Origin: Alphaproteobacteria bacterium
Lineage (GTDB): Bacteria; Pseudomonadota; Alphaproteobacteria; SMXP01
DNA length: 64,000 nucleotides
Assembly: GCA_965214255.1 (NCBI GenBank)
Contig: OZ243948.1
Coordinates: 1,433,885 to 1,497,884, forward strand
Direction of reading: 5' to 3'
Positions 37,715-63,399 of this stretch are shown here, one piece after another; positions within the stretch are counted from its first letter, which is position 1; every line of letters starts with the position of its first letter. Below the pieces are notes generated by a model. That model worked only from the letters and a program-made list of their open reading frames with translations. It was not told where the DNA came from and made no database searches. Both the position numbers and the translations under genes were made by a program.

Positions 37715-38027
37715 AGATGACTCCCTGACGTCGTTGTCGGCCTTGGTCGCCGCCCTTTATATACGGCAGACCGCCCCAAGGAACCAAATATTGTGCCGTC
37801 GCCGCGCGGCGGACGCACGTTATGCGAAGCTGACGAATCGCAAGATGTCACGGACACAAGGCAAATCTCTCCGGCGGTTCACCGGCCGTGCCTCGCATCG
37901 TTTTCAGTCATCGGTCTTCACCGCTCGACCCGGCTTTCGACATTTGACAAGGTCGAATCAAGTGTGCGCTATTGATCGCTCAAGCGCCGCATCCAACCGG
38001 AAACTCATAAAGCCTAAGGAGACCGTC

Positions 38028-41252: not shown

Positions 41253-42158
41253 GTGAGACCTCATGTAGAGATAGTTCAACAGACTGATTTATGTTGGCAC
41301 GCTGCGGAGTTGCCCCAGGGCTCTGGTCGGGTTGCGCAGCGCAATTTGTGTTACGACGAGGAGAACGGTGCGGCGTCGACCAAGCTTCGTTTTGATACGG
41401 ATTGGAACCGTGAGGGCGGGTATCACGAGGCTGACACGGAGTGGTATGTTTTGGACGGCGAGGTTCGTCTTGGCAATCATGTTCTGCGTCAGGGGTGTTA
41501 TTGGCGTGCTCCTGCGGGGTTTCGGATACCGGACATGTTTGTGAGGGAAGGCACCGAGGTGTTGCTGTTTCGGGAGTATGGGGACTGGGGGTTTTCGGTA
41601 TCCGACGATCACCGTGACAGGTTCATATCCCAGGGCGGGAACACTGCGTCCCGGAAGCCGGGCAAGCTTACGGTGATGGATTCGAACAAGATGACGTGGA
41701 TGCCCAACATTTTCGAAGGCGACACCCAGTGGGAGTTGATGCTCAAGATGCTCTACCGGGACCCGCCCAACGGAGAGGACATCACCAAGGGCTTCGTCAC
41801 GATCCTGTGTTGGGCCCCGCCCGGCTGGTCCGACAACCGCCTCATTCATCATCCCGTGTTCGAGGAGGCCTATACCATCGACGGGCACATGGAATACAAC
41901 TTCGGACGCATGGATCCGGGAACCTATTTCTTCCGGCCCGCCAAGGTCAAACACGGCCATTTCATGGCCGGTGAGGAAAAGGGCGCCACATGGATCTTCC
42001 GTCTCGACGGACATCTGGTCAACTGGGTTACCATCGAAGAGCAGATCAAGGTCATCGGAAAAGCCCTCAACTACGACCCCGCTACACAGGGACCCGTCAT
42101 CGCCGGACTCCCCGTCCGATCAAACTCAACCGGAACATGGAACCGCGATGGACAATAG
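41253..42158 (+). CDS. Bicupin-like hypothetical protein (paralog 1 of 3)
   Basis: Two cupin-like halves. Paralogous to 50661..51527 and 63400..64000 (MRPHVEIVQQTDLCW… / MPRPHIEFIQSQALPW… / MSNRVIEYLDLTKTSHEPL…). Confidence 0.55.
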   Translation: MRPHVEIVQQTDLCWHAAELPQGSGRVAQRNLCYDEENGAASTKLRFDTDWNREGGYHEADTEWYVLDGEVRLGNHVLRQGCYWRAPAGFRIPDMFVREGTEVLLFREYGDWGFSVSDDHRDRFISQGGNTASRKPGKLTVMDSNKMTWMPNIFEGDTQWELMLKMLYRDPPNGEDITKGFVTILCWAPPGWSDNRLIHHPVFEEAYTIDGHMEYNFGRMDPGTYFFRPAKVKHGHFMAGEEKGATWIFRLDGHLVNWVTIEEQIKVIGKALNYDPATQGPVIAGLPVRSNSTGTWNRDGQ

Positions 42159-42237: not shown

Positions 42238-42894
42238 TCAGTTCGACAGCACCGCCTCTTCACCACGAACCTGTTCCTGCGTCCATTCCCATGGATACTG
42301 CTTTTTGGGCGCCTGTCTCAAAATCAGGAACGGGGCCGGCGTCGATGTCGCCGTCATGAATTTCCAAAGCTTTTCCGTAAAGTCCTCGTCCTGCAAACTC
42401 AGCGCGTCTTCAGGCAAGTCGATATAAGGATCGTCGCCCTCCTCGCAGACATTGATGCTGCGGAAGAAAAGAATCTTGCCGGGCTCGTCCGGCATGAGCG
42501 CCCGCATACGGAACGACTCGTACATGTTGTCGGGCATGGCTTTCTTGGGACTGGTCCAGACGATCTCGTCGACCACCTCCGTGATGGTGATGCCGCCCTC
42601 TCCGGTTATCGGCGCCGCCAACGGACGCATCTTGGTTCGAATTTCCCAATCGTGATCGTGATGCGGGCGAACGCTGTTGATCTCCTCGGGGATCTTGACC
42701 CGCACTTCCTTGACCGGCGCGCCTCTGCACCCGTGCGTAACGAGAAGTTCGATATCGACCCTGTGTCCGGCGTAAGCCTCGGTTTTGGTCAGAAAATTAT
42801 GGCTCCAGGCGGAACCGGAAAGCAAAAGCCCGGCCCCTAAAACCGCAGCCGCGATGCTCAAAGACGCTCTCATTCTCCCTCTCCTCGCTTGCAT
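42238..42894 (-). CDS. YcnI-like (DUF1775) periplasmic protein, putative copper-binding
   Basis: Signal peptide cleaved just before His (…SGSAWS|HNFL…), giving an N-terminal His typical of the family. Confidence 0.45.
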   Translation of the reverse strand: MQARRGRMRASLSIAAAVLGAGLLLSGSAWSHNFLTKTEAYAGHRVDIELLVTHGCRGAPVKEVRVKIPEEINSVRPHHDHDWEIRTKMRPLAAPITGEGGITITEVVDEIVWTSPKKAMPDNMYESFRMRALMPDEPGKILFFRSINVCEEGDDPYIDLPEDALSLQDEDFTEKLWKFMTATSTPAPFLILRQAPKKQYPWEWTQEQVRGEEAVLSN

Positions 42895-42979: not shown

Positions 42980-44494
42980 ATGAGGACGCATCTTTCTTCA
43001 GCAAGACTGTCTTTTTTCCTTTTTGCGCTAGCCCTGAGCCTGCGGCCAAGCCAAGCCCGGGCCGCCGATCCCTTGGACGAGATCGACAGCGACTTGTTGC
43101 CGACAGTGGAGGAAATACACGCATGGCACGCCAGCAAAGACGAACGGGGGCCCACATTCGCCGGCAGCCCATCCTGGCTCAATTTCATGTCCATTGTCGA
43201 AACGGAATTGGCGTCGCGCGGCGTCGTGGACGTCATCAAGGACGCCTATTCTTATCCGCGGCAAACGACCTCGTTTTACTACGACGAGGGACAGTGGTCT
43301 CTCAAAATCGACGATGACGACATACCCGTCGCGTCCTACTGGGCCTATTCGGGCTCGACCGGACCCGAGGGTATAACCGCTCCCCTCGTTCTCTATGAGA
43401 CGGGGACGGCGCTCAATGAACTCGAAGGAAAAATCGCGATCTTTGAAGTGCCGGCGCTTCCCGATGAGCGACCGTCGATGTTTCAAGAGCCCGGTTACGA
43501 ATTCGCGACGGACGCCGACACGGTGACGAGCAATGCGGCGCTGAGTTCCGACCAATGGTACCAAACCAACTACGTCACGCGCTTCGGCCGGTTCGACGTC
43601 ATCGTCAAGGAAAGCCGCGCGGCGGGCGCGCTCGTCGTCTTTTCAATGGGTCCGGGACGCGCGGCCGGTCTCTATACGTTCCCCTTGCTGAACCCCGTTT
43701 TTATCGGCGCACCCGGTCTTTACCTGGACGCCGCCGCCGGGGCGCGCGTCAAGCGGGCGGCGCGGGACGGCAAGAGCGCAACGATGACCCTGCGGGACGA
43801 AATCGAACAAACCGAGGCTTACCTCTATACGGGCTTTTTGCCCGGCAAAGACTACGGTACCGATGATGACGAATACGTCTTCGTCATCACACACGCGGAC
43901 GGCCCCAATCTCACCCAGGACAACGGCGCCTTCGGCGTCATGTCCGTTGTCCGCTACATGTCGAACATCCCGCGAAGCGAGCGGCGGCGAACGCTGGCGG
44001 TCATGATCGATTCACAGCATTTCATGCCGCACCGGCACATGACCGACTGGTATGGGATTCATCCGGACATCGTCGAAAAGATCGTCGCGACGATAGGCAT
44101 CGAACATCTGGGCCAGCGGGAATATGTCGAGCGCGGCGGCGACTTCGTTCAGTCTGGTCTTCCGGAGCCCACCCTCGTCTTCGTTCAGGACAACGACTTT
44201 TTGATCGACGAAGCGATCGAAGCGGTCAAACGATTCGACTTGAGGCGCACCATGGTTCAGTCGCCGCCGCGCGGGGGTCAGGGGAACTGGTCCGGCATGA
44301 GCGACATAGCGGTCAAACGGAATTATCCCGGATACGGCATGAGCACGCTGATGAGCGCCTACTGGTCGACCCACGCGCGCCTCGACTCATTCGACGCCAG
44401 ACAATTCCGCAAACAACTGGGAGTCGCCGCTCACCTCACGGCGGTGCTCATGCAAGCGGACCTCGAAGACATGGCCATTGAAGCGAAAGACTGA
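42980..44494 (+). CDS. Secreted hypothetical protein (504 aa)
   Basis: Signal peptide LSFFLFALALSLRPSQARA. No motif recognised. Confidence 0.55.
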   Translation: MRTHLSSARLSFFLFALALSLRPSQARAADPLDEIDSDLLPTVEEIHAWHASKDERGPTFAGSPSWLNFMSIVETELASRGVVDVIKDAYSYPRQTTSFYYDEGQWSLKIDDDDIPVASYWAYSGSTGPEGITAPLVLYETGTALNELEGKIAIFEVPALPDERPSMFQEPGYEFATDADTVTSNAALSSDQWYQTNYVTRFGRFDVIVKESRAAGALVVFSMGPGRAAGLYTFPLLNPVFIGAPGLYLDAAAGARVKRAARDGKSATMTLRDEIEQTEAYLYTGFLPGKDYGTDDDEYVFVITHADGPNLTQDNGAFGVMSVVRYMSNIPRSERRRTLAVMIDSQHFMPHRHMTDWYGIHPDIVEKIVATIGIEHLGQREYVERGGDFVQSGLPEPTLVFVQDNDFLIDEAIEAVKRFDLRRTMVQSPPRGGQGNWSGMSDIAVKRNYPGYGMSTLMSAYWSTHARLDSFDARQFRKQLGVAAHLTAVLMQADLEDMAIEAKD

Positions 44495-44630: not shown

Positions 44631-46301
44631 ATGTCCGCTTTGATTTCACGCCATATCGCCACGGTCGGCAGCCGCCAAGTTCATTACCGCCGCGCCGGAG
44701 ACGGCCCGCCCGTCATGCTGTTGCACCAGTCGCCTACATCGTCGCGGGAATACGTGCCGTTGATTACGGAACTGGCAAAGGACTTCACCGTCTTTTCGCC
44801 CGACACGCCGGGCAACGGGCTGTCGGACCCCCTGCCGATCGAAACCGTCACCATGAGCGATCTGGCAGACGCGGTCGCGGGTCTCCTCGACGAACTGGGC
44901 ATTGAAAAAATTCCCGTCTACGGCTTTCACACGGGCGCGCTCTGCGCTCTTGAACTGGCCCGCCGTCATCCGGACCGCATCGCGCTGTCCATTGTCAACG
45001 GCTACATTCAGATGGACGACGCCACGCTTCAAGATTTTCTCGATCATTATTTTGCGGAACTCCATGTGGATTGGAGCGGCAGTCATCTCGCCTGGATCTG
45101 GGCGCGCATGCGCGAACAATATATTTTCTTCCCGTGGTACAAGAAGGGCCTCGAACACCGCGGAAATTTCGATCTTCCGTCCAAAGAGCATATTCACGAC
45201 GCCGTCATGGAAATTTTGAGGGCGGGCGATCACTATCGCGGGCCGTACCGCTCGGCGTTCATGTTCGACGCGGCGGAAGCCGTGCAACAGGTCACGGCAC
45301 CGACCGTCATGATGTGCGCGCGCAGCGACGTGTTGTTCGCCTTTTTCGAGGTGATGCCGAAACCGGCGGACTGCGTGACCAAGCTCGCGACGGACTCCCA
45401 CGAGCACAGCGAGCGGGAACTCGTTCGGCTGTTCAAGGAAAACCCCTCTTCGGCTGCCGCGCCCGAGGTCGCCCCGACCAGGGCGATGGAAGGCAAAGTG
45501 TGGCGTGAATGTTTCGCCGTAAACGGCGGCACGCTCTACGGGCGGCGCAACACCGACGGTCAGGGACGCCCCGTCGTCATTCAGCATGCCTCCGCCGGGT
45601 CGAGCGCGGGTCAGGTGGATCTGATGCAGGCGTTCATCGGCAAGCGTCCGGTGATCGCCTTCGATTTGCCGGGCAACGGCGAAAGCGACAGATTGCTGGA
45701 CGCCGACGACATCACCGTCGCCCGACAGGCGGATTTCCTGGCTCAAGGCATTCGCGCCGCGGGCTACGACGAAATCGATATCATCGGCGACTGGGGCGGC
45801 GGAACCGTAGCGGTCGAACTCGCGGCGCAGAACCCCGATCTCGTCAAACACGTCGCCGCGCCTCACCTGATCGTGCTCGACGACGCCACCCGCGAGAGGT
45901 ACCTTGAGCACTATACGCCGCCCCTCGACATCGACGAATATGGCGGGCATATGCTCAAGGCGTGGGTCATCATCCGCGATCAGGAACTTTTCGCCCCCTA
46001 TTTCGAGCGCAAGCGCGAGAACATCATTCGCTCGCACGAGCCGCGCATAGATCCGCAACACGTTCATCTGCGCACGCTCGATCTTTTGAAATGCGCCGAT
46101 CTTTACGGCAAGTTCTACGCCGCACACTTCACCTACCCGGTCCTGGATCGACTGAAGCGGCTTGCCTGCCCGATTCTGATCGGCGATCCGGACGGTCCGG
46201 CCGCCGCGCTCGACTTGCCCAACGTCACGGCGCGAAAACTGCCCTATGGACCCGGCCCCGAACTCGCCGACGCCCTGCTCACATTCTTCGAAACCGCGTA
46301 A
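44631..46301 (+). CDS. Tandem-duplicated alpha/beta-hydrolase-fold protein (epoxide-hydrolase/dehalogenase-like) with variant nucleophile elbow
   Basis: Domain 1 has HQSPTSS…PGNGLSDP…YGFHTGAL, with His at the nucleophile position. Domain 2 has QHASAGSS…PGNGESD…IGDWGGG, which is GHDWGG-like. Confidence 0.7.
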   Translation: MSALISRHIATVGSRQVHYRRAGDGPPVMLLHQSPTSSREYVPLITELAKDFTVFSPDTPGNGLSDPLPIETVTMSDLADAVAGLLDELGIEKIPVYGFHTGALCALELARRHPDRIALSIVNGYIQMDDATLQDFLDHYFAELHVDWSGSHLAWIWARMREQYIFFPWYKKGLEHRGNFDLPSKEHIHDAVMEILRAGDHYRGPYRSAFMFDAAEAVQQVTAPTVMMCARSDVLFAFFEVMPKPADCVTKLATDSHEHSERELVRLFKENPSSAAAPEVAPTRAMEGKVWRECFAVNGGTLYGRRNTDGQGRPVVIQHASAGSSAGQVDLMQAFIGKRPVIAFDLPGNGESDRLLDADDITVARQADFLAQGIRAAGYDEIDIIGDWGGGTVAVELAAQNPDLVKHVAAPHLIVLDDATRERYLEHYTPPLDIDEYGGHMLKAWVIIRDQELFAPYFERKRENIIRSHEPRIDPQHVHLRTLDLLKCADLYGKFYAAHFTYPVLDRLKRLACPILIGDPDGPAAALDLPNVTARKLPYGPGPELADALLTFFETA

Positions 46302-46314
46302 GGGAGTATCCTAC

Positions 46315-47154
46315 ATGCAGATCGACCGTGGATTCGTTCGCATCGACGAAGGTCTCGTACATTACCGCCATTGCGGCGAGCCGAGCGATGCGCCGCCGCT
46401 TTACATGATTCACGCCTCTCCGGCGTCGTCCATTGCCGTCGCCGGTCTCATGGGACACCTGGGCGCGACGCGCAAAGTCTACGCTCCCGATACGCTGGGC
46501 AACGGCGATTCGGCGCCGCCCGCCCTCGACAAGCCGCAAATGGACTACTACGCGGAAACCGTGACGCGGGTGCTCGATGGATTGGGACTCGATCAGGTGG
46601 ACATGTTCGGCAGCCACACCGGCGCGCACATCTCTTCGGAAGTCGCCATTCGTTATCCAGACCGCGTGCGCAGACTCGTCTTCGACGGCGTCGCCATGTT
46701 CACCGAAGACGAGCGCCGCGAATGTTTGGAGAATTACGCGCCCGAGATGGCGCCCGACATTTACGGCAATCATCTCAACTGGGCGTGGCACTTCGTACGC
46801 GACCAGGGCGCGTATTTCCCTTATTTCAAACGGGACCCCGAGCATGTCCGCAGCGTACCCATGCCGTCCGCGGACGTGCTTCACGCCATAACCGTAGAAG
46901 TGATGAAGGCGATCCGCACCTATCACAAAGGCTACCGCGCGGCTTTCAGTCACAACATTCGCGAGCGGCTGCCGCTCATCGAGCAGACGACGTTTTGCAT
47001 GGCGTCGGACTCCGATCCTCTGAACCCGGGCGTCGATGAAACGGCGCGTCTCGTCAAAAACTCCCGCAAAGCGATCCTGCCGGGCGAAGAGACGCCCGAA
47101 GGCTTGGAAGCCAAGGCCGAAGCCATTCAACGGTTTCTTGATGACCATGACTAA
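46315..47154 (+). CDS. Alpha/beta-hydrolase-fold protein, single domain (paralog)
   Basis: IHASPASS…LGNGDSAP…FGSHTGAH. ATG 46315 follows agggag. Confidence 0.7.
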   Translation: MQIDRGFVRIDEGLVHYRHCGEPSDAPPLYMIHASPASSIAVAGLMGHLGATRKVYAPDTLGNGDSAPPALDKPQMDYYAETVTRVLDGLGLDQVDMFGSHTGAHISSEVAIRYPDRVRRLVFDGVAMFTEDERRECLENYAPEMAPDIYGNHLNWAWHFVRDQGAYFPYFKRDPEHVRSVPMPSADVLHAITVEVMKAIRTYHKGYRAAFSHNIRERLPLIEQTTFCMASDSDPLNPGVDETARLVKNSRKAILPGEETPEGLEAKAEAIQRFLDDHD

Positions 47155-47983
47155 CCCCGCTCCATTCGGCCCCGCGAACATCGTGCGGGACTACGGCGCT
47201 TACGAGCACGGACAGATCCATTTCCGGATCTCCAGGCCGGACGACCCGGCGCGCACGCCGCTCATGTGCTTTCACATGAGTCCGAGTTCGGGCCGCATTT
47301 ACGCGCGGCTTTTGAGTTATCTGGGGACGGACCGGATAGCGCTCGCTCCGGACACGCCGGGCTTCGGCGAAACGGACGTGCCGCCCCGCCCCTTGGAGAT
47401 CGAAGATTTCGCCGAAGCGAATTTCGGATTGCTCGATCAATTGGGTTTGACCGGTGAAGTCGATGTCATGGGGTATCATACGGGCTCTTTGACCGCTTCC
47501 GAGATGGCGCGCCAACAGCCGGGGCGCATCCGCCGCGTGATCCTGATCTCCGCTCCGATCTTCACGGAAACGGAACTCGAAGAATTTCGCAACGAGTACG
47601 CGCACCGCGAAGTCAAGGAAGACGGCAGCCATCTGGTCGACTTGTGGAAGGCCGTGCGCTTCTGGGGCGACAAAACGCAAACCCTCGAAAACGCCATGGA
47701 GCACTATGCCGAACATTTGCGCGGCGGCAAGAATTCCTGGTGGGGCCACCGCGCGGCCTTCAACTACAAACTGCAGGACACGCTGCCGCGGCTCGGTCAG
47801 CCCATTCTGGTCCTCAATACGGAAGACGATCTGCACGAGCACTCCTTGCGCGCCGCGACGCTCATGCAGAACGGACGCATCCGGGAACTTCCCGGCTGGA
47901 GCCACGGGTTTCTGGATATCCATACGCAAGAGGTCGACGCCCTTGTCCGCGCGTTTCTCGACACGGACGAGGTCTCTTCTTGA
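47141..47983 (+). CDS. Alpha/beta-hydrolase-fold protein, single domain (paralog)
   Basis: FHMSPSSG…PGFGETD…MGYHTGSL. The start overlaps the previous gene by 14 bp, or by 8 bp if ATG 47147 is used. Confidence 0.7.
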   Translation: MTMTNPAPFGPANIVRDYGAYEHGQIHFRISRPDDPARTPLMCFHMSPSSGRIYARLLSYLGTDRIALAPDTPGFGETDVPPRPLEIEDFAEANFGLLDQLGLTGEVDVMGYHTGSLTASEMARQQPGRIRRVILISAPIFTETELEEFRNEYAHREVKEDGSHLVDLWKAVRFWGDKTQTLENAMEHYAEHLRGGKNSWWGHRAAFNYKLQDTLPRLGQPILVLNTEDDLHEHSLRAATLMQNGRIRELPGWSHGFLDIHTQEVDALVRAFLDTDEVSS

Positions 47984-48010: not shown

Positions 48011-49613
48011 TTGCATATTGCGGTGTGTTCGACAATAAAAGCGTTTATGACGGACACGAGACCGACGGCGGCGACGGACCGCTTCACCCTTTTGACGGTC
48101 GCCATCGCCGCACTCGGCGCGGGACTCGTGCTGGGACGCGAGTTCACCTTCGGAGTGGTATTATTCTCGGATTCGGCGTCTCATATAGGCGCCGCCCGGA
48201 GTCTGCTGGCCGGGGAAGGACTTCTCAGATGGGACGGCAACCCTTATATTTCGTGGCCTCCTCTCTACCCCCTGCTTCTGGCCGCGGCCAGTTTGGGGAT
48301 ATTCGATCCCATCGCCGTCGCCGGCCCTCTCAACGCCGTCATTTTCGGACTGACTATTTTCATCGTGGGGCGGTATCTGCGGCAACGCCTGGCGTCCCGA
48401 TTCCTGGCGGCATGGGGCTGTCTGGCAACGGCCCTGGCGATCCCGCTGGTGACAATTTCGTCATGGGCGCTCGCCGATACCCTGTTGATCCTGCTGACGA
48501 CCCTGGCGCTCATTCAGACCGACAGGTTCCTGACCGAGGGCAAGACCCGGACGCTGGTCTGGGCGGCGGTGTTCAGCGCCCTGGCCTTGCAGTCCCGGTA
48601 CATCGGGGTTGTCGTGCCGGTTTTTATAGGGCTGCTGCTCCTCTTCCAGCGGGGGGGGGGCCATGGCCCGGAGAGCGGGGCGCGTCGCCGCTTGCTCTCT
48701 GATCGTGGCGGCGCCGACGGTCCTGTGGTTTCTGCGCAATCTCTTGACCGTCGGAGTGATCAAGAGGTACCGCCCGCCCGGCGGCGATCCTCTGATGCTG
48801 CTGCGGGATGTTTTCGACATCCTGTGGAGTTGGGCGCAAATCAATAGTGCTGCGGTGGTCCTGGCGTCGCTCGCCTGTATTTTCGTTGTCGTGCAATGGA
48901 GGCGTTTGACCGTTGCCGACTGGCGGCCTTTCTGGCTGTTCGCGGGTTTCGCGCTGACGTACCTCGTCCTGCTCATCGCGGTCTTATCGTTTCTGACCAA
49001 TGTCAACCCTCATCGTATAGGGGAGAGACAGATGATTCCGGTGTATATTCCACTCCTGATAGCCGTGGTGTTCGTGCTGGACCGTGTTCTCGACCATGAA
49101 CGAGAGAGGAAGCTGTTGGGAAGCGTCGGCGGCCTGCCGATCGTTCGAACGATGATGCCGGGAAAGAAGGGAAGCGCGCTGGCCGCCATTGTCATGATCG
49201 TTCTTTCTCTGGGAGCGGCGAGTCAGATATTTCCGAACGTCTCCGGCATTATCAAAGCAAACCGCGGCGAGATTTTCCTGGGGTTAAGCGGGCCGCGCTG
49301 GGCCGGTTCCGAGACGATGCGATACCTCCGGGAAAACCCCGTTGCGGGGGAAATATTGAGCAATACGCCATATCCTTTGTCGCTTTACCTCGGTAGAAAC
49401 TATAAGTATCCATCCTACCATTATATGCCGAAAGTCTCCCGGGGCGGGCTGGAGCGGCTATTGATCCCGGACGGCGCGTACATAATCTGGTTCTACAGAC
49501 CAACGTGGAACCGGCGTGAATATGTCTATGGCGGATCCGACCTGGAATTAATTCCGGGCCTGCAACCGGTGGCGGAACTGGCGGACGGTATCGTCTTCAG
49601 GGTGGCAAGGTGA
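48011..49613 (+). pseudogene. Polytopic membrane protein (GT-C/ArnT/PMT-like) split into two frames at a G10 homopolymer
   Basis: ORF 48011..48847 (frame 2) and ORF 48663..49613 (frame 0) are both multi-transmembrane. They join in-frame if the G tract at 48651..48660 is G9. Confidence 0.55.
48651..48660. repeat. Poly-G (G10) homopolymer at the frameshift site
   Basis: Sequence is ctcttccagc + gggggggggg + ccatgg. Confidence 0.9.
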
Positions 49614-49789
49614 ACAGACGCGCGGAGGGCGCCCGCGACGACCGGGGCGGTTCATCGTTCCGGGACGGTTGCATACCGGGGCGTGTTCAGCGACAAGGGT
49701 GTTCATGGCGGACGCGAGACTGACGGCAGTGGGATTCGCGCCATCGGCAGGGTGCGGCGCGCGCGTATCGGCGAGCGAGCCGCGCTCGC

Positions 49790-50557
49790 CTATCGCTCTT
49801 CGGAATTTTCCAACCGCTCGCGGATCTGACGATTGATCTCCTCGGCGCCGGGGCGCGTGTCTTTCACCGTCGGATCCACCGCGTTGTAGATTCGACCGAT
49901 GGTGCCGTCGTCTTCAAGCGCTTGAACCACGAGGAGCGCTACATCCGATCTCATTATGGAACCTGCCGGAGAGTTCGTCGGGAGCAACTCTCCCTTGCCC
50001 GTGGGCAGGCCGTCGATCAGACCGCCCGGGCGGATGATGGTGTAATCGAGGCCGCTGGCAATCAAGTGGTCTTCGCCGCGCCGTTTTTCGTACATGACAT
50101 TTCCCATGTAATCCCCCGGATCGGGCTTTTCGGTCGGCGCGTCGTCGACGCCGATGGCGCTCACCTGGATGACGCGTTTGACGCCCGCCGCCAGCGCGGA
50201 CTCGTTGATATTCCTGTTGCCGACATAGTCGGGCCGCGGTTCTCCGGGGCGGCCGCCCAAAGAACTCACCACCGCGGTGAACGAGCCGGACGCAAAGGCA
50301 GCCGCCACGTCGCCGTCGTTCAAGGCGTCACCCACGACATACGAAACGCCAAGCGGCTCCAAACCTTCAAGATTGGATGTGGGCCTGACAAAGACGGTGA
50401 CGTCCCGGCCCTGGCCGCGCAGCAGCTTTACCGTTTCAAGTCCGCAGCCGCTCGTGCCGCCGAATACGAGAATGCGGTCATCCGCCCGCGCCGACGTGAG
50501 CGCGGCGCCGAGACCGAGCGCCAAGCCGAAAATACTCGATATCCACTTTTTCAACAT
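49790..50557 (-). CDS. NAD(P)-binding NmrA-like/atypical SDR protein with signal peptide (paralog of 20467..21255)
   Basis: ATG 50557 has a ggagga RBS. Signal MLKKWISSIFGLALGLGAALTSARA, then ILVFGGTSGCG. Confidence 0.7.
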   Translation of the reverse strand: MLKKWISSIFGLALGLGAALTSARADDRILVFGGTSGCGLETVKLLRGQGRDVTVFVRPTSNLEGLEPLGVSYVVGDALNDGDVAAAFASGSFTAVVSSLGGRPGEPRPDYVGNRNINESALAAGVKRVIQVSAIGVDDAPTEKPDPGDYMGNVMYEKRRGEDHLIASGLDYTIIRPGGLIDGLPTGKGELLPTNSPAGSIMRSDVALLVVQALEDDGTIGRIYNAVDPTVKDTRPGAEEINRQIRERLENSEER

Positions 50558-50660
50558 GATGGGCATCTCCTCCATTTCCGAACGGGCCGTATTGCAGGGG
50601 CCGCGCAGACCGCCGTGACGACTCGCCGTTCGCCGGCCTTCATGTATTTATGTAAAAACG

Positions 50661-51527
50661 TCAGTAGCACAGTGTTTCGCGGCCGGGCGCGCGGCCGTAT
50701 CGTTCGAGTCCGGGCGGCAATACGGGGCGGTGTTGCGGCGTCCATGTGAAGCTTTCGTCGCCCTCGGGAGTTTCCGTTTCCAGCGGGCCGCCTTCGGTAC
50801 GGAACAGCATGAGGTTGCCGGTCTTGGATCCGAAAGGCCCGTGGCGCATGTGGGGCGGGCGCCAAAAATACGCGCCGGGCATCATGATACCCGTATCGCC
50901 CGCCATCTCGCCGGTGAGCAAATACATCTCTTCGACAACGGGATGCACTTCAACGACGCTGTTCCGCCACAGGGGCGGCGCCGAAATGATCCACGTTTGA
51001 TTCCCCGTGTAAGGATCGACACGGAGCACCAGATTTCCGAAGTCCGCGACGCCTTCGCCGAGCGCGCTGTCCGGATCCACGTTGAGCCTGGTTTGATCAT
51101 GCGAAAAGGACGCCGTCAGCACGTCGACGCGCTCGATGAGCAGGTCCGGGTCATATAATCCCGACGGCGCGGGGCCGGCCGCGGAAACGGGCTCGCCGGA
51201 GTAAAACGTCAAAACGACGGCGCCGTCCGGCGATTCCACCTCGGTGCGCGCATAGCCGGCCGGCAGATGGGCGTAACACATTTCACCGTAATCAATGTCA
51301 TTGATCTTCAGAGCGCCGCCCAAAACGAAAAGTTCCTCGTGAACGGGCACGTGTTCGACCGCACGCCTTCGCCAACCGGGCGGATATTTGACGAGCGTGC
51401 TGCCGGCCCCGCTGTCGGCGTCCCGGCTCAGGACTTTTACCTCCGTGTCTTCCAGAAGGCCGCCCCAGGGACTTTTCGTCCAGGGCAAAGCCTGCGATTG
51501 AATGAACTCGATATGAGGCCGCGGCAT
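50661..51527 (-). CDS. Bicupin-like hypothetical protein (paralog 2 of 3)
   Basis: See the bicupin paralog at 41253..42158. Confidence 0.55.
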   Translation of the reverse strand: MPRPHIEFIQSQALPWTKSPWGGLLEDTEVKVLSRDADSGAGSTLVKYPPGWRRRAVEHVPVHEELFVLGGALKINDIDYGEMCYAHLPAGYARTEVESPDGAVVLTFYSGEPVSAAGPAPSGLYDPDLLIERVDVLTASFSHDQTRLNVDPDSALGEGVADFGNLVLRVDPYTGNQTWIISAPPLWRNSVVEVHPVVEEMYLLTGEMAGDTGIMMPGAYFWRPPHMRHGPFGSKTGNLMLFRTEGGPLETETPEGDESFTWTPQHRPVLPPGLERYGRAPGRETLCY

Positions 51528-58348: not shown

Positions 58349-58750
58349 CGGTTCCCCCGATCTTGACGAAAAAACTGGCTGGAACACCCCCGCCCCAACA
58401 GCGGACCTTGGACCCAACCCTCTGTCACGAACAAAACATCACGAGGCATGTCACGACCCCGTGAAAATACTTGAACTTGGAAACTCCCCCTCTTCAGCGG
58501 TCGCCTCCGCACGCGCACGGATTACTAAAAGCCAATCTATTACTTTAAGGTTAAAGAAAGCAATATGCGACGAATTTTGGAGAGAATTCCCAAGTGAGAC
58601 AATTTTGCAACAAATTTGTTATTGAATTGAAGCACAAGAGCGCTCGAAAATAAAGGGGCTCTCGGCAGCCTTGAGGTTTTGCATTCGCCGAAGCGTTGGG
58701 CCATTGTTTGCCGCACGCGTCCGCATCAAAATCCGGGAGTTCATGCAAAC

Positions 58751-60427
58751 ATGGCCGTATCTCAAATCGAACGGCATTTCGTGACGTTCGATAACCGTCA
58801 AATTCATTACCGCCGCGCCGGGTCGGGGCCGCCCGTCCTGCTCCTGCACCCCTCGATGCGTTCATCGGCCATTTACATATCGTTGATCGAAAGGCTCGCC
58901 GAACATTTCACCGTCATCGCCATGGACTCGCCGGGTTACGGCCTGTCGGATCATGTCCACATGCTAAAGCCCGAGATTCCGGATTTCGCCGACGGCGTCA
59001 TTCAATTCCTGGACACGCTGGGCATCGACAAAGTTGGCCTTTACGGCCAGCTCACGTCGGCAAAAATTGCGCTCGACCTGGCATGCCGCTATCCGGAACG
59101 CTTTACCGTCGTCGTTCTCGATAAATACCTCATGCATACCGAAGATGAGCGCCGCGACGTGCTGTTGAATTTTGCGCCCGAATTCAAGCCCGTTTGGGAC
59201 GGTCGGCACATGCTGCATGCCTGGACGTTCGTGCGCGAGCACGCCCACTCCTATCCCTGGCACCGGCAAACCGCGACGACGCGCATCGACGTGGACATGC
59301 CGGACGCCGACGGTCTTTATTTCGGGGTCATGAACTTTTTCCGGACGGGCCTTTTTTATCATCTGGGGCCAAGGGCCGCCTTCCGCTATATCGGCCAGCC
59401 TCGCGTTCACCAGATCAAGGCGAGGACATTTTTTCTGGGCACGCGGCTCAAACCGTTTGATACCCACCTTGAGCGTCTGCCCGAACTGCCCGGTCACGTC
59501 ACGGCGGAAATGGTGGAAGACGAAGCGCAATTCGAGTCGCGCCTGATGGAAATTCTGTCGGCGTTTCCCTCAAACGCACAGGTGCCGCCGGCTCCCGCCC
59601 CCGCGCCCCTCAAAGACCGATGCGTCAGCACGTATCTCGAAGGCGACGGCGGTCTTGTCCATGTGCGCCACAACCCTCACGGGTCCGGACGGCCATTGCT
59701 TCTGGTACACGGCGCCGGGTCCGCCGCGCGCATCGGCGAACGTTTGGCCGACTCATTGACGGGAAAGAGACCGATTATCGGAATCGACCTTCCGGGCCAC
59801 GGAGAATCCGACCCCCTCGCGAACATCGAAGCCGATACGGTGGCGGCTTATGCCTCATCCCTCGCGCAATCCGTCGATCGCTTGAACTTGACCGAAGTCG
59901 ACATCCTGGCGCTCGAAGGCGGCGGCTGCGTCGCCCTTGAGTTGGCCAATTTGAAACCCGGCTTCATAAAACAACTCGTCCTTTGCGACGTACTTTGCCC
60001 CGGCACCGAAGAATACGATGAATTTCGAACGCGCTATGCGCCGACGATCATGCCGGACGAACACGGCGGCTATTTGCTGCAAGCCTGGCATTTCATTCGC
60101 GACCAATATCTGTTCTGGCCGTGGTTCGATAAACGAAAAGAAAACTTTTTGTGGGAACCACCCTATGCGGAACTCGAGTTCGTGCATTCCAAAGTCGTCG
60201 AGCTTTTGAAATCCTTGAAGTCATTTCAGAGTTTCTATCGCAGTCAATTCGATTACCCGTTCGAAGAGCGGTTGCGCGGCAGCGCGGCGCCCCTGTCCGT
60301 TTACACGTTCCCCCATGATCCGAAGCTCGCCCATGCCGAACGCGCGGGCAGGGCCGCAGGCGTCGAACTCCGGCGCCTGACTCGCGAAATGAACTCCTGG
60401 GCCGAGGAAATCCATGCCCAGGGGTAG
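58751..60427 (+). CDS. Tandem-duplicated alpha/beta-hydrolase-fold protein (paralog of 44631..46301)
   Basis: LLHPSMRSS…PGYGLSDH in domain 1 and LLVHGAGSA…PGHGESDP in domain 2. Nucleophile-elbow positions are GQLTS and LEGGG. Confidence 0.7.
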   Translation: MAVSQIERHFVTFDNRQIHYRRAGSGPPVLLLHPSMRSSAIYISLIERLAEHFTVIAMDSPGYGLSDHVHMLKPEIPDFADGVIQFLDTLGIDKVGLYGQLTSAKIALDLACRYPERFTVVVLDKYLMHTEDERRDVLLNFAPEFKPVWDGRHMLHAWTFVREHAHSYPWHRQTATTRIDVDMPDADGLYFGVMNFFRTGLFYHLGPRAAFRYIGQPRVHQIKARTFFLGTRLKPFDTHLERLPELPGHVTAEMVEDEAQFESRLMEILSAFPSNAQVPPAPAPAPLKDRCVSTYLEGDGGLVHVRHNPHGSGRPLLLVHGAGSAARIGERLADSLTGKRPIIGIDLPGHGESDPLANIEADTVAAYASSLAQSVDRLNLTEVDILALEGGGCVALELANLKPGFIKQLVLCDVLCPGTEEYDEFRTRYAPTIMPDEHGGYLLQAWHFIRDQYLFWPWFDKRKENFLWEPPYAELEFVHSKVVELLKSLKSFQSFYRSQFDYPFEERLRGSAAPLSVYTFPHDPKLAHAERAGRAAGVELRRLTREMNSWAEEIHAQG

Positions 60428-60504: not shown

Positions 60505-61668
60505 ATGGCCAGCCAGTTTCGACACGCGGTTCTCCCGGAGGCCACGAGTGAAGAAGAAGCCCGGCAGGACTTCGTCTTGAGCTTAAGTCAACATTGCATG
60601 AACAACGTCATGCCCGGGATCTCTCCCCTTTACGAAAAGAGAGTTTTGCCGGAGATCAAGCGTGAAAAAGGCCGCGAGCCGGAAACGCGTCATGAAATCC
60701 GCAAGGCCATGCAACGCCAGCCGTACTATCAAATGGCAAGCTCCTTCCAACGCACGACGCAGGAAATGCTATGGAACTCCGTCGACGAAAGCGTGTTGCG
60801 TCAATTGCCCCATTTGATCGACAAGATGAAAAAGGTGACCGGCAGCAAGACCAAAGGGTCGCTGACGCTCGACCCCGGCTTTGAAATTCCCCGCTATATC
60901 AAAAACAACGATCATCATGTCATGCCGGGAGGATTTTCGGCCGACTTGTGCGAAAACGACATCACCGGCGGCGCCATGTACGACCGGGGCGTCTTTCTGT
61001 TCACCGACGGCATGTTCGGCGAAAAGAACGACAGTGTCGGCAAGGCCGGAGTCCGTTTCATCAAGACGTATTATCCCGACCTCAAACCGAACAGAATCCT
61101 CGACGTGGGCTGCGGTGTCGGCATGACGACAGTCCCCCTCAAGGAAGAATGGCCGGACGCGGAAGTCCATGGCATCGATGTCGGACCCGCCTTTTTGCGT
61201 TACGCCCATGCCCGCGCGGAAGAATTCGGCGCCGAGATTCATTTCCATCAGATGAACGGTGAAGGCACGGGTTTCGAGGACAACTCATTCGACCTCGTCA
61301 TTTGCTCGACCGTGTTTCATGAAACCTCGGTGCGCGCCGCGCAAAACCTCATCAAAGAAGCCCAACGCATATTGCGGCCGGGCGGCGTCTACGTTGTCGG
61401 TGAACAGCCGCCCTATGAGGGCAAATCGGCGTTCGAGCAATTCGTCGGCGATTGGGACACGTTCAACAACAACGAGCCCTTTTGGGCCAAGTGCCATGAG
61501 ACGGATTTTGTCGGGATCTGCAAGGATGCCGGCTTCGCGGAGGCATGGTCTTCCCTTGAAGACAGTGTGGGATCAACCAACGAACTCGAAGGCAAAATCG
61601 ACCCGGGCGAAATCGTCGGCACGGACCGCGGCGGCGGGACCTTTTGGTTCTTTACCGCGACGAAGTGA
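60505..61668 (+). CDS. Class I SAM-dependent methyltransferase with ~180-aa N-terminal extension (paralog A)
   Basis: Motif I ILDVGCGVGMTT. Post-I acidic residue, plus FDLVICSTVFHE and LRPGG. Confidence 0.75.
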   Translation: MASQFRHAVLPEATSEEEARQDFVLSLSQHCMNNVMPGISPLYEKRVLPEIKREKGREPETRHEIRKAMQRQPYYQMASSFQRTTQEMLWNSVDESVLRQLPHLIDKMKKVTGSKTKGSLTLDPGFEIPRYIKNNDHHVMPGGFSADLCENDITGGAMYDRGVFLFTDGMFGEKNDSVGKAGVRFIKTYYPDLKPNRILDVGCGVGMTTVPLKEEWPDAEVHGIDVGPAFLRYAHARAEEFGAEIHFHQMNGEGTGFEDNSFDLVICSTVFHETSVRAAQNLIKEAQRILRPGGVYVVGEQPPYEGKSAFEQFVGDWDTFNNNEPFWAKCHETDFVGICKDAGFAEAWSSLEDSVGSTNELEGKIDPGEIVGTDRGGGTFWFFTATK

Positions 61669-61713
61669 GTTAACTGCGGTATAAGGGTTCGGCAATCAAC
61701 GAGGCATCATGCA

Positions 61714-62877
61714 ATGGACAAACAATTCCAACACGCTCTGCTCCCCGCAACCAACAGCGACGAACAGGCCCATCAGGAGTTCGTCCAAAGCCTGCAGCAT
61801 TATTGCATGAGCGACGTCATGCCGGGCGTGTTGGCGGCGTATGAAAAACAAGTGCATCCCAGACTTGTGCGCGAATACGGCCGCGAGCCGGAAACCCGCC
61901 AGGAAGTGCGCAGGGAAATGGAGCGCCATCCCTACTACCAGATGGCCAGTTCATTTCAGCGGACCTCAAAGGAACTCCTTTGGGAGTCCGTCGACCAAAG
62001 CATATTGAGACAGTTGCCTGAACTCGTTGACAAGGCAAACGAATTGACCGGCGGCAAGACCAAAGGGTCTTTGACGCTGGATCCCGATTTGGAAATCCCC
62101 CGCTATGTCTTGAAAAACGACCATCACGTCATGCCCGGCGGGTATTCCGCGGAACTGTGCGACGGCGACATTGCGGCCGGCGCTTTGTACGACCGCGGCG
62201 CCTATCTGTTTGCCGACGGCCTCTTCGGCGAAAAAATGGACAATCTCGGCAAACTGGCGGTTTGGTTCATCAAAAAACATTTCCCCGAGATGAGGCCGGA
62301 GCGGATTCTCAAAATCGGCTGCAATATAGGCGCGTCCACGCTGCCCCTTAAGGAAGCGTGGCCGGAGGCGGACGTCCATGGCATCGATGTCGCGCCCGTC
62401 CTGCTTCGCTACGGGCATGCCCGCGCGGAAGATCTGGGGGTCGCCGTGCATTTTCATCAAATGGACGCCGAAAACTTGAAATTCGAAGACAACAGCTTCG
62501 ACATCGTCTACAGCGTCGCCACCTTCCATGAACTCAATCGACGGGCGGTCTCGAACGTGATCGATGAAGCCCATCGGGTATTGAAACCGGGCGGCGCCTT
62601 CGTGAACGGCGAACAGCCGCCCTACGAAGGCAAGCCGGCTTTCGAACAGTTTTTGGGCGACTGGGATACGCTTAACAACAACGAGCCGTTTTGGGGCGCG
62701 TTTCATGACATGGACGTAGTCGAGATGTGCCGAAAGGCGGGTTTCAGGAAAGCATGGGACGGTTACGGTCCGACGCTCACCTCGCTTGAGAACATGGAAG
62801 CGACGTTTGACCCATCCGAAATCGTCGGCACGGACCGGGGCGGCAGTGAATTATGGTTTTTCGCCGCTATAAAATAA
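61714..62877 (+). CDS. Class I SAM-dependent methyltransferase with N-terminal extension (paralog B, tandem duplicate)
   Basis: ILKIGCNIGAST and LKPGG. The sequence is collinear with paralog A over the full 387 aa. Confidence 0.75.
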   Translation: MDKQFQHALLPATNSDEQAHQEFVQSLQHYCMSDVMPGVLAAYEKQVHPRLVREYGREPETRQEVRREMERHPYYQMASSFQRTSKELLWESVDQSILRQLPELVDKANELTGGKTKGSLTLDPDLEIPRYVLKNDHHVMPGGYSAELCDGDIAAGALYDRGAYLFADGLFGEKMDNLGKLAVWFIKKHFPEMRPERILKIGCNIGASTLPLKEAWPEADVHGIDVAPVLLRYGHARAEDLGVAVHFHQMDAENLKFEDNSFDIVYSVATFHELNRRAVSNVIDEAHRVLKPGGAFVNGEQPPYEGKPAFEQFLGDWDTLNNNEPFWGAFHDMDVVEMCRKAGFRKAWDGYGPTLTSLENMEATFDPSEIVGTDRGGSELWFFAAIK

Positions 62878-63314: not shown

Positions 63315-63399
63315 CCCGGTCTCATTCGTTCCGCCCGTTTCAAGCACGTGCTCGGACTTGAAACGAATTCAGACCAAACAAACCGAAGTGAGGCAGGAC

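What the first reader, a model, noticed from the sequence alone, without database searches (positions are those of the whole stretch)
44631..47983. Array of alpha/beta-hydrolase-fold paralogs with a His-for-Asp/Ser substitution at the nucleophile elbow
Three adjacent genes (one with a tandem domain, two with a single domain) share the signature HxSPxSS … PG(N/F/Y)G(L/E/D)SD … G-x-H-T-G. The nucleophile position is His in three domains (GFHTG, GSHTG, GYHTG). The tandem partner domains read IGDWGGG, which is GHDWGG-like (epoxide-hydrolase type), or LEGGG. The last two genes overlap by 8-14 bp. This is either a non-catalytic binding family or unusual chemistry. I do not recognise it as a named family.
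Basis: seen in the sequence. Interest (0 to 1): 0.6.

Follow-up and report, generated by a model that had tools for sequence, protein, structure and literature searches.

The report
Alpha/beta hydrolases with histidine elbow
Three adjacent genes encode members of a large, unnamed branch of the alpha/beta-hydrolase fold, so far seen only in uncultured aquatic and sponge-associated Proteobacteria, in which a conserved histidine sits where these enzymes normally carry their catalytic serine, cysteine or aspartate, so they probably use chemistry nobody has yet tested.

Summary
Genes g1 (44631-46301, two domains), g2 (46315-47154) and g3 (47141-47983) are alpha/beta-hydrolase-fold proteins. Their G-x-H-T-G histidine sits at the nucleophile elbow. 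This is shown by HMMER alignments to solved enzymes, where the His falls on the catalytic Asp or Ser, and by confident AlphaFold models with a strand-His-helix junction.

The His is not a local accident. It is kept in 120/120, 118/120 and 118/119 homologues of the three genes, and in 114/132 strong domains of 50%-identity representatives. The family has about 1,070 clusters at E<=1e-30, and all 80 genome loci recovered are MAGs.

The family descends from the epoxide-hydrolase/dehalogenase branch. g3-type domains also keep the triad Asp and His. g1N- and g2-type domains keep only the Asp.

In the g1 C-terminal domain 'IGDWGGG' carries Trp, not Asp, at the elbow. That Asp is not conserved and the domain looks degenerate. 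'LEGGG' belongs to a different gene (58751-60427).

Domains commonly occur as fused tandems or adjacent pairs, which suggests (pseudo)dimers. The function is untested. I favour a real enzyme with His-based, non-covalent catalysis (about 0.4) over a metal site or a non-catalytic protein. It is a new variant of a known fold.

The parts
44631..46301 (+). g1: 556-aa two-domain alpha/beta-hydrolase-fold protein. The N-domain has a His elbow and the C-domain is degenerate.
   Evidence: ORF and ENA gene call. Pfam Abhydrolase_1 matches in two stretches. AlphaFold pLDDT 95.2 and pTM 0.92. The two-domain architecture is kept in 120 orthologues.
44922..44936 (+). g1 N-domain nucleophile elbow G-F-H100-T-G.
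   Evidence: The His aligns on the Asp nucleophile of epoxide hydrolases. It lies at a strand 94-99 / helix 101-112 junction. It is His in 118/120 orthologues.
44724..44744 (+). g1 N-domain oxyanion-loop motif H-Q-S-P-T-S-S. It corresponds to H-G-x-P of epoxide hydrolases and HGNPTSS of haloalkane dehalogenases.
   Evidence: Alignments. S34, P35, S37 and S38 are conserved.
45084..45101 (+). g1 N-domain cap motif H152-L-A-W-I-W157. Together with Y206-R (45246-45251) and D233 (45327-45329) these are invariant in orthologues.
   Evidence: Invariant columns. D233 aligns on the catalytic Asp of esterase Est1 (second matched stretch).
45786..45800 (+). g1 C-domain degenerate elbow G-D-W388-G-G. Trp is at the nucleophile position.
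   Evidence: Register from hmmalign. The helix starts at 389. W is kept in 98/120 orthologues and D387 is variable.
46315..47154 (+). g2: 279-aa single-domain paralogue of the g1 N-domain type. It has elbow G-S-H101-T-G at 46609-46623 and acid D234 at 47014-47016, and no triad His.
   Evidence: GSHTG or GTHTG in 118/119 homologues, and GSHTGAH is invariant.
47141..47983 (+). g3: 280-aa single-domain paralogue with a complete His-Asp-His set. It has elbow G-Y-H113-T-G at 47471-47485, D229-D230 at 47825-47830, H255 at 47903-47905, cap H164..W169 at 47630-47647 and W201-G-H203-R at 47741-47752.
   Evidence: Full-length alignment to chloroperoxidase L puts H113, D229 and H255 on its Ser, Asp and His. 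AlphaFold pLDDT 91.6. Invariant columns. 918 homologues were found.
58751..60427 (+). Fourth paralogue, outside the finding. It is a two-domain protein 34% identical to g1. Its elbows are G-Q-L-T-S (Leu, 59045-59059) and A-L-E-G-G (Glu, 59909-59923).
   Evidence: Related tandems next to methyltransferases in other genomes keep GSHTG in the N-domain, so this copy has lost the His.
60505..62877 (+). Two class-I SAM methyltransferase paralogues, 60505-61668 and 61714-62877, 60% identical. Homologues lie within 10 kb of His-elbow hydrolase genes in 14 of 80 loci.

Best explanation
g1, g2 and g3 belong to an uncharacterised clade of the alpha/beta-hydrolase fold. The clade arose from the Asp-nucleophile branch (epoxide hydrolases, haloalkane and fluoroacetate dehalogenases). 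In it the elbow Asp has been replaced by an invariant His inside G-x-H-T-G.

I think the His-elbow domains are working enzymes, not dead ones. In this reading the elbow His acts as a general base or proton shuttle. It is held by the conserved acid Asp after strand 7, and in g3-type domains also by the triad His after strand 8. It activates water or a substrate group in a single step, without the covalent ester intermediate of its ancestors. A retained cap pocket (His164/152, Trp169/157, and His or Tyr at 203/206 followed by Arg) grips an oxygen or anionic group of a small polar substrate. The invariant Ser of H-x-S-P may take part.

The proteins act as two-domain units: homodimers, adjacent heteromeric pairs or fused tandems. 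In g1 the second half (Trp elbow, no triad) has become a purely structural partner.

What is shown: fold, elbow position, conservation, ancestry, and the pairing and fusion pattern. What is inferred: catalytic competence, the general-base role, the cap pocket role, dimer formation and substrate type.
For: - Fold and elbow position.
- Ancestry: the best sequence matches are epoxide hydrolases and dehalogenases, with shared N-terminal and H-x-x-P-x-S-S / D-x-P-G-x-G-x-S-D motifs. The nearest structures to g1 are fluoroacetate dehalogenase and epoxide hydrolases. Those nearest to g3 include Cif, haloalkane dehalogenases and esterases, with TM 0.7-0.79.
- Purifying selection on the active-site positions: H113, T114, D229, D230, H255, S47, H164, W169, W201 are invariant or nearly so at about 45-50% overall identity. 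The elbow His is kept in 114/132 divergent representatives.
- Contrast within the same protein: the g1 C-domain lets these positions drift. This shows what a dead domain looks like in this family.
- H203 and H255 co-occur (148 both, 84 neither, 46 mixed).
- The cap His/Tyr spacing matches the His/Tyr ring-opening pair described for Cif-like epoxide hydrolases (PMC8244358). This is a positional analogy only.
- Pairing: 27 loci have fused two-domain genes and 25 have adjacent same-strand pairs, out of 75 loci. The g1 model has pTM 0.92 across both domains.
- Recurrent neighbours on the same strand within 300 bp are SDR and NAD(P)-binding oxidoreductases (8 and 11 loci). That fits small-molecule metabolism.
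Against: - No biochemical datum exists for any member.
- A His side chain at the elbow next to the triad His is sterically unusual.
- The triad His is present in only 58/132 representative domains, and g1N and g2 lack it. No single mechanism fits all subtypes.
- Genomic context is heterogeneous, and g1 orthologues sit alone in unrelated neighbourhoods. No pathway can be read off.
- The model coordinates could not be inspected, so distances between H113, H203, H255, S47 and D229 are unknown.
- Conserved non-catalytic alpha/beta-hydrolase families do exist (neuroligins and others, PMC3531081).
Confidence: 0.4

Rival explanations
1. Metal-site variant. In g3-type domains the elbow His113, the triad His255 and the cap His203 (possibly with His164, Glu145 or Asp229) form a His-rich metal centre such as Zn, Fe, Mn or Cu. 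The fold would then become a metalloenzyme or a metal-binding protein.
For: Up to four or five conserved His and carboxylates occupy canonical active-site positions. H203 and H255 co-vary strongly. A His-Asp second-shell pair (H255-D229) is typical of metal sites (established knowledge). A copper-binding DUF1775 (YcnI-like) protein and cupins are encoded nearby, although these are not conserved neighbours.
Against: g1N- and g2-type domains and more than half of the divergent representatives lack H255 and often H203, yet still keep the elbow His. No geometry could be measured. I found no report of a metal-dependent catalytic centre at this position of the fold. The copper and cupin neighbours recur in only 2-3 of 80 loci.
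Confidence: 0.2
2. Non-catalytic family. The His-elbow domains are ligand-binding, scaffolding or regulatory proteins (pseudoenzymes). The His is kept for structural or binding reasons, as in NDRG or neuroligin-type members of the fold.
For: The canonical nucleophile is absent everywhere. The triad His is missing in g1N, g2 and many representatives. The family readily generates plainly degenerate domains: the g1 C-domain with a Trp elbow, and the 58751-60427 paralogue with Leu and Glu elbows. g2 gives a marginal Pfam Ndr hit (23.8 against 23.3 bits). There is no consistent metabolic operon.
Against: Near-invariance of His113, Thr114, Asp229 and, in g3-type domains, His255 across hundreds of sequences at about 45-50% identity is what an active site shows. 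The contrast with the drifting g1 C-domain argues that the His-elbow domains are under a different, stronger constraint. The Ndr match covers only profile positions 62-128 of 283.
Confidence: 0.25
3. Relocated nucleophile. The invariant Ser/Thr of the H-x-S-P oxyanion loop (S47 in g3, S34 in g1) is the true nucleophile, and the elbow His is its general base. This would be a permuted Ser-His(-Asp) triad that forms a covalent intermediate.
For: The position is Ser or Thr in 102 of 123 aligned representative domains and is invariant within each of the three subfamilies. In haloalkane dehalogenases the equivalent residue (Asn of HGNPTSS) points into the active site beside the nucleophile (established knowledge, not tested here).
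Against: This rests purely on positional reasoning, with no geometry available. Ala, Asn, Phe and Val occur at this position in some representatives that keep the His. The residue may simply be structural.
Confidence: 0.1
4. Mis-assigned elbow or annotation artefact. The real nucleophile is a canonical Ser or Asp elsewhere, or the genes are decaying pseudogenes.
For: None found.
Against: Alignment to solved enzymes, two high-confidence models, motif scans and conservation in more than 350 homologues all place His at the elbow. The reading frames are intact with strong third-position GC bias. Identical genes are present on independent assemblies.
Confidence: 0.02

Closest known systems
Epoxide hydrolases of the alpha/beta-hydrolase fold, including Cif-like enzymes (such as 7ac0, 9c2g, 1ehy, Cif 3kd2)
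   Same: They give the best sequence matches to g1. They share the N-terminal strands, the position of the H-G-x-P loop, the D-x-P-G-x-G-x-S-D strand-4 motif and the elbow register. They are among the nearest folds. The cap carries a His and a Tyr-Arg at spacings like the His/Tyr ring-opening pair of Cif-like enzymes (PMC8244358). This last point is an analogy and has not been verified structurally.
   Different: The Asp nucleophile is replaced by His. H-G-x-P becomes H-x-S-P, with the Gly lost and Ser in place of the aromatic residue. The triad His is absent in g1N and g2. NCBIfam and Pfam give no epoxide-hydrolase-specific hit.
Haloalkane and fluoroacetate dehalogenases (DhaA, LinB, RPA1163)
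   Same: HQSPTSS resembles HGNPTSS. Fluoroacetate dehalogenase is the top structural match for g1. The g1 C-domain matches dehalogenases best in sequence. Fluoroacetate dehalogenase works as a homodimer (established knowledge), which parallels the paired and fused domains seen here.
   Different: There is no Asp nucleophile. The halide-stabilising Asn and Trp next to the nucleophile are replaced by Ser and Thr. NCBIfam dehalogenase scores are far below their cut-offs (92.8 against 241, 56.8 against 265, 46.4 against 466).
Serine esterases, perhydrolases and non-haem chloroperoxidases (1a88, 1zoi, 8pi1, 4uhc)
   Same: They give the best full-length sequence and fold matches for g3. Its H113, D229 and H255 fall exactly on their Ser-Asp-His triad.
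   Different: The Ser is replaced by His. The oxyanion loop and the cap are different.
E. coli RutD and tomato MKS1 (elbow G-H-A-L-G)
   Same: Both are alpha/beta-hydrolase-fold proteins without a canonical nucleophile that are still regarded as enzymes. [quoted passage not shown] MKS1 is a decarboxylase that works without a nucleophile.
   Different: Aligned to g1-g3, the RutD His is one residue before the nucleophile position and the central residue is Ala. RutD is only 17% identical to g3. The RutD model scores 76 against a 238.5-bit cut-off. The central His in G-x-H-T-G is therefore a different arrangement.
NDRG / Ndr family (PF03096), non-catalytic alpha/beta-hydrolase-fold proteins
   Same: g2 and some homologues give marginal Ndr hits over the strand-4 to elbow region. 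Both lack a canonical nucleophile.
   Different: The match covers only about a quarter of the profile, at the threshold. Ndr proteins are eukaryotic and, from memory, carry Gly at the elbow. The His elbow and the conserved Asp/His set are absent there.

Membership tests
Alpha/beta-hydrolase fold superfamily (Pfam Abhydrolase_1 / Abhydrolase_6) | Profile match above the curated threshold | tested here: met
   PF00561 scores 98.8, 49.8 and 35.8 bits against a 25.8 cut-off for g1, g2 and g3.
Alpha/beta-hydrolase fold superfamily (Pfam Abhydrolase_1 / Abhydrolase_6) | Eight-stranded sheet with a strand-5 / sharp turn / helix-C elbow, and an inserted cap after strand 6 | tested here: met
   AlphaFold models have pLDDT 91.6 and 95.2 with the expected order of elements. 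Foldseek gives TM 0.7-0.79 to many solved members.
Alpha/beta-hydrolase fold superfamily (Pfam Abhydrolase_1 / Abhydrolase_6) | Canonical catalytic nucleophile (Ser, Cys or Asp) at the elbow | tested here: not met
   The residue is His in g1N, g2 and g3 and Trp in g1C. Many accepted members of the fold also lack this feature, so fold membership stands but 'canonical hydrolase' does not.
Alpha/beta-hydrolase fold superfamily (Pfam Abhydrolase_1 / Abhydrolase_6) | Acid after strand 7 and His after strand 8 | tested here: inconclusive
   g3 has both (D229/D230 and H255 aligned on those of 1a88). g1N and g2 have the Asp only. g1C has neither conserved.
Epoxide hydrolase (alpha/beta type) | Asp nucleophile in sm-x-D-x-sm | tested here: not met
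   His replaces the Asp in the alignment to 9c2g and 7ac0. In g1C the Asp is one residue out of register and not conserved.
Epoxide hydrolase (alpha/beta type) | H-G-x-P oxyanion motif with an aromatic x | tested here: not met
   The motif is H-[QAM]-S-P in all three genes and H-[MLSA]-S-P across the family.
Epoxide hydrolase (alpha/beta type) | Two cap residues (Tyr/Tyr, or His/Tyr in Cif-like enzymes) that polarise the epoxide | tested here: inconclusive
   Conserved cap H152 + Y206 (g1N) and H164 + H203 (g3) lie at comparable spacing. Sequence alignments to epoxide hydrolases stop before the cap, and the model coordinates could not be inspected.
Haloalkane dehalogenase | NCBIfam equivalog score above cut-off, and the catalytic pentad Asp-His-Asp/Glu plus the halide-binding Asn/Trp | tested here: not met
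   Scores are 92.8/241, 56.8/265 and 46.4/466. The nucleophile Asp, the Asn of HGNP and the Trp after the nucleophile are all replaced.
BioH / pimeloyl-ACP methyl ester esterase (the name JGI gives the homologues) | TIGR01738 score above cut-off and a Ser nucleophile | tested here: not met
   Scores are 45.2, 15.8 and 20.8 bits against a 206.95 cut-off, and there is no Ser at the elbow. The JGI name is the generic COG0596 label.
RutD family | TIGR03611 score above cut-off, a G-H-A-L-G elbow and rut operon context | tested here: not met
   The score is 76.1 against a 238.5 cut-off. The elbow register differs. There are no rut genes nearby.
Ndr family (PF03096) | Full-length profile match above threshold | tested here: inconclusive
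   g2 scores 23.8 against a 23.3 cut-off but covers only profile positions 62-128 of 283. g1 scores 14.9, below the cut-off, and g3 has no hit.

The most novel reading that the evidence does not exclude
The G-x-H-T-G proteins are a fourth catalytic class of the alpha/beta-hydrolase fold, after Ser, Cys and Asp. In this class the elbow histidine itself does the chemistry. It would act either as a covalent N-nucleophile (for example forming an acyl-, alkyl- or phospho-histidine held by the oxyanion hole) or as a ligand of a catalytic metal together with His203 and His255. The class would be abundant in uncultured aquatic and sponge-associated Proteobacteria and would operate as hard-wired asymmetric dimers.
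Probability: 0.2. Interest if true: 0.85.

Novelty: new variant of a known kind. Interest (0 to 1): 0.6.

Why it matters
The alpha/beta-hydrolase fold is one of the largest and most engineered enzyme scaffolds. Its textbook rule is a Ser, Cys or Asp nucleophile at the elbow.

This family breaks that rule. It has about a thousand 50%-identity clusters, several copies per genome, and an invariant His in the nucleophile position. All current pipelines label it 'alpha/beta hydrolase' or 'pimeloyl-ACP methyl ester carboxylesterase'.

If the His is catalytic, the family adds a new mechanistic option to the fold. It would also point to unknown metabolism in abundant uncultured Alpha- and Gammaproteobacteria, including sponge symbionts. 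The fused tandems with one degenerate half would be a natural model of how an active/inactive heterodimer evolves from a homodimer.

If the proteins turn out to be non-catalytic, this would still be a large bacterial pseudoenzyme family and would need re-annotation.

Tried and rejected
- Alternative elbow. Motif scans find no other G-x-[S/D/C]-x-G at a strand-helix junction, so this was rejected.
- g1 C-domain as an Asp-nucleophile epoxide hydrolase. Rejected, because the Asp is out of register and not conserved.
- Curated family assignment. Pfam and NCBIfam give only generic or sub-threshold hits.
- Solved relatives. Sequence and profile searches of the PDB find only canonical enzymes at about 20% identity or less. 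Foldseek gives the same picture.
- AlphaFold database search. The afdb50 library was unavailable.
- Literature. Five searches for a His at the nucleophile position or a GxHxG motif found nothing apart from the ESTHER remark on RutD. The RutD paper itself is not held. Alignment shows the RutD His is at position -1.
- Conserved operon.
  - The methyltransferase link holds in 14 of 80 loci, several of which share the same gene order.
  - The upstream 504-aa secreted protein and the downstream PMT_2-like genes have no counterparts in the 80 loci.
  - g1 orthologues elsewhere are solitary.
- Promoter and terminator scan. The result is no better than shuffled sequence.
- Active-site distances. Model coordinates are not exposed by the tools, so I could not measure them.

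Full report
**What is there.** The region holds three co-directional genes.
- g1 runs from 44631 to 46301 (556 aa).
- g2 runs from 46315 to 47154 (279 aa).
- g3 runs from 47141 to 47983 (280 aa).

The ORF list allows longer upstream starts for g2 and g3. Gene calls on two independent ENA contigs that carry identical genes use the shorter starts. With these starts g1 and g2 are 13 nt apart, with AGGGAG before the ATG. g2 and g3 overlap by 14 nt. All frames show the third-position GC bias of real genes in this 60% GC genome. The three proteins are paralogues, 31-33% identical pairwise. g1 consists of two such domains. All pass Pfam Abhydrolase_1.

**Is the histidine really at the nucleophile elbow?** Yes, on four lines of evidence.
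1. In HMMER alignments to solved enzymes, 'vyGfHtGa' of g1 lies on 'vvGhDyaa' and 'viGhDwGg' of epoxide hydrolases 9c2g and 7ac0. The His therefore lies on the Asp nucleophile.
2. 'mGyHtG' of g3 lies on 'iGHStGG' of chloroperoxidase L 1a88. That full-length alignment also puts g3 D229 and H255 on the catalytic Asp and His.
3. AlphaFold models built from family alignments are confident: g3 has pLDDT 91.6 and pTM 0.90, and g1 has pLDDT 95.2 and pTM 0.92. They place H113 between strand 107-112 and helix 114-125, and H100 between strand 94-99 and helix 101-112.
4. No other small-x-[Ser/Asp/Cys]-x-small motif sits at a strand-helix junction.

**Is it more than chance?** The His is kept in the following samples.

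| Sample | Elbow His kept |
|---|---|
| g3 homologues, G[YF]HTG | 120/120 |
| g1 orthologues | 118/120 |
| g2 homologues | 118/119 |
| Strongly matching domains among the 150 best 50%-identity representatives | 114/132 |

A profile search of 1.84 billion 50%-identity representatives finds 1,069 clusters at E<=1e-30. In the representative domains the elbow His accompanies Thr114 (117/132), Trp169 (122/132), Asp229 (108/132) and the H-x-[S/T]-P-x-S loop.

All 80 genome loci recovered are metagenome-assembled genomes. They come from Alphaproteobacteria/Rhodospirillaceae, Gammaproteobacteria including Candidatus Foliamicus, Steroidobacteraceae and Lysobacterales, with several loci per genome. No source gives a specific name.

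**Subtypes.** Aligning 170 domains from the loci to the g3 profile separates three types.
- **Type A (g3).** It has H-[MLSA]-S-P-S, G-[YFM]-H-T-G, Glu145, His164..Trp169, Trp201-Gly-His203, Asp229-Asp230 and His255. The canonical triad positions read His-Asp-His.
- **Type B (g1 N-domain and g2).** It has the same elbow His, cap His/Trp, Tyr-Arg instead of His-Arg at 203, and the acid Asp. It has no His after strand 8.
- **Degenerate partner domains (g1 C-domain).** The elbow reads G-x-W-G-G, the oxyanion-loop motif is eroded and there is no triad His.

In g1 orthologues the elbow Trp388 is kept in 98/120. The preceding residue varies (T, Y, M, D, H...). The model starts helix C directly after Trp388, just as it does after His100 and His113.

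'LEGGG' belongs to a fourth paralogue at 58751-60427, which is 34% identical to g1. Its two elbows carry Leu and Glu. Related tandems in other genomes keep GSHTG, so this copy has lost the His.

**Ancestry.** The N-terminal half is recognisably that of the Asp-nucleophile branch.
- 'HYRRAG.GPPV.LLHQSPTSS' compares with 'HYV..G.G.PL.LLHGWPQSW' and HGNPTSS.
- 'PDTPGNGLSD' compares with 'PDLRGLGDSE'.

The highest NCBIfam hits are dehalogenase, enol-lactonase and AcoC-type models, all far below their cut-offs. Foldseek puts fluoroacetate dehalogenase and epoxide hydrolases first for g1. For g3 it gives a mix of esterases, perhydrolases, Cif and dehalogenases.

The cap keeps a His (152/164) and a Tyr or His followed by Arg (206/203). 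Their spacing recalls the two ring-opening residues of epoxide hydrolases and the His/Tyr pair of Cif-like enzymes (PMC8244358). I could not verify this structurally, so it remains an analogy.

**Organisation.**
- Of 75 loci with called genes, 27 contain a fused two-domain gene and 25 contain two family genes adjacent on one strand with a gap of 60 nt or less. Together these make 43 loci.
- Fusions include A-A tandems, sometimes two in a row, and B-degenerate tandems like g1.
- The g1 model has pTM 0.92 over both domains, with a confident linker.
- This is the pattern expected if the functional unit is a dimer of two such domains. The partners would be supplied by one gene (homodimer; single genes dominate in the Foliamicus-like group), by two adjacent genes or by a fusion.
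- The g1-g2-g3 trio itself recurs only in the closest relative (L003, 77% identity). g1 orthologues in two other genomes stand alone in unrelated neighbourhoods.

**Context.**
- In the window the trio lies after a secreted 504-aa protein with no family match. It lies before a membrane PMT_2-like glycosyltransferase that is split into two overlapping frames.
- Neither neighbour recurs in the 80 loci.
- The recurrent immediate neighbours elsewhere are an SDR (8 loci) and an NAD(P)-binding Rossmann protein (11 loci). The latter resembles the window gene at 49790-50575.
- A 390-aa class-I methyltransferase, homologous to the window pair at 60505-62877, lies within 10 kb in 14 of 80 loci. Several of those loci share the same gene order.
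- The DUF4437 bicupins, of which the window has three, recur in only 2-3 loci.
- No pathway can be inferred.
- The promoter and terminator scan is uninformative.

**Mechanism.** Nothing has been measured, so this section is inference. I favour a working enzyme for three reasons.
- The canonical active-site positions are among the most conserved in the His-elbow domains.
- The same positions drift in the partner domain of the same polypeptide.
- The cap pocket inherited from epoxide hydrolases and dehalogenases is retained.

Replacing a carboxylate nucleophile with an imidazole removes the alkyl-enzyme ester route. The simplest alternative is that the elbow His acts as a general base. It would be oriented by Asp229 directly (type B) or through His255 (type A). 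It would activate water or a substrate group while the cap residues hold an oxygen or anion.

The variants are a permuted Ser47-His113 dyad, a covalent N-nucleophile, or a His-rich metal site. H203 and H255 co-vary (148 both, 84 neither, 46 mixed). That number is inflated by shared ancestry.

The non-catalytic rival remains serious. The triad His is absent from more than half of the divergent representatives, and the family readily produces dead domains.

**Comparison with what is known.** The fold definition allows Ser, Cys or Asp at the elbow and lists non-catalytic members (PMC3531081). The only literature hint of a His there is that paper's remark on E. coli RutD (G-H-A-L-G). Aligned to g1-g3, the RutD His is at position -1 and the central residue is Ala. 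RutD is therefore not the same arrangement. Five full-text searches found no description of a G-x-H-x-G elbow.

**Verdict.** This is a large, consistently mis-annotated, uncharacterised variant of a known fold. It is not a new fold or system. Interest is moderate to high for enzymologists and low for everyone else until an activity is found.

Noticed in passing
window 58751-60427: A fourth family member: a two-domain paralogue 34% identical to g1. Its elbows carry Leu (GQLTS) and Glu (ALEGG) instead of His and Trp. It lies directly upstream of two methyltransferase paralogues. It looks like a copy in which both domains have lost the family's His.
   Followed up: partly
window 60505-61668 and 61714-62877: Two tandem class-I SAM methyltransferases, 60% identical. 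Each has an unassigned N-terminal region of about 190 aa. Homologues lie within 10 kb of His-elbow hydrolase genes in 14 of 80 loci, and several of those loci share the order SDR, tandem hydrolases, methyltransferase, tandem hydrolase.
   Followed up: partly
window 41253-42158 (+), 50661-51527 (-), 63358-64000 (+, runs off the end): Three DUF4437 / ChrR-cupin-like bicupin paralogues, 27-29% identical, scattered among the hydrolase genes. No NCBIfam family matched the one tested (41253-42158). They rarely neighbour the hydrolase family in other genomes (2-3 of 80 loci).
   Followed up: partly
window 48011-48847 and 48663-49613 (ENA calls correspond to 48047-48853 and 48801-49619): A PMT_2-like membrane glycosyltransferase appears split into two overlapping reading frames directly downstream of g3. 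The same split is present on independent ENA contigs. It is either a genuine frameshift or pseudogene, or two separate genes.
   Followed up: no
window 39771-40847 (-): A 358-aa protein with a signal-peptide-like N-terminus and a CpeT/CpcT (phycobilin lyase family, DUF1001) domain, in what appears to be a non-photosynthetic proteobacterial genome.
   Followed up: no
window 42238-42894 (-) and 42980-44494 (+): Divergently placed upstream of g1 are a DUF1775 (YcnI-like, copper-binding family) protein and a 504-aa protein with a signal-peptide-like N-terminus and no Pfam or NCBIfam match. The latter has no homologue near the hydrolase family in the 80 loci.
   Followed up: partly
window 49790-50575 (-); loci L009, L010, L019, L020, L027, L061, L065, L066 and others: An NAD(P)-binding (NAD_binding_10) protein with a hydrophobic, signal-like N-terminus. 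In 11 loci, including several Rhodospirillaceae MAGs, it lies on the same strand within 300 bp of a family gene, typically directly downstream of the hydrolase pair. A leader on an NAD(P)-binding Rossmann protein is odd.
   Followed up: no
L005 (contig CAXQNK010000073.1): A 63%-identical homologue pair sits on a contig binned as Nitrosopumilus sp. (an archaeon), while every other locus is proteobacterial. This is probably a mis-binned contig.
   Followed up: no
window 36212-37714 (-) and 37734-38879 (+); 53952-55937 (-): A UbiD-family decarboxylase, a DUF1838 protein and an Old-Yellow-Enzyme/FAD two-domain oxidoreductase lie in the same neighbourhood, together with a TonB-dependent receptor (56195-58417) and an MFS transporter (51605-52984). 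The region looks like a patchwork of uncharacterised small-molecule catabolism genes.
   Followed up: no
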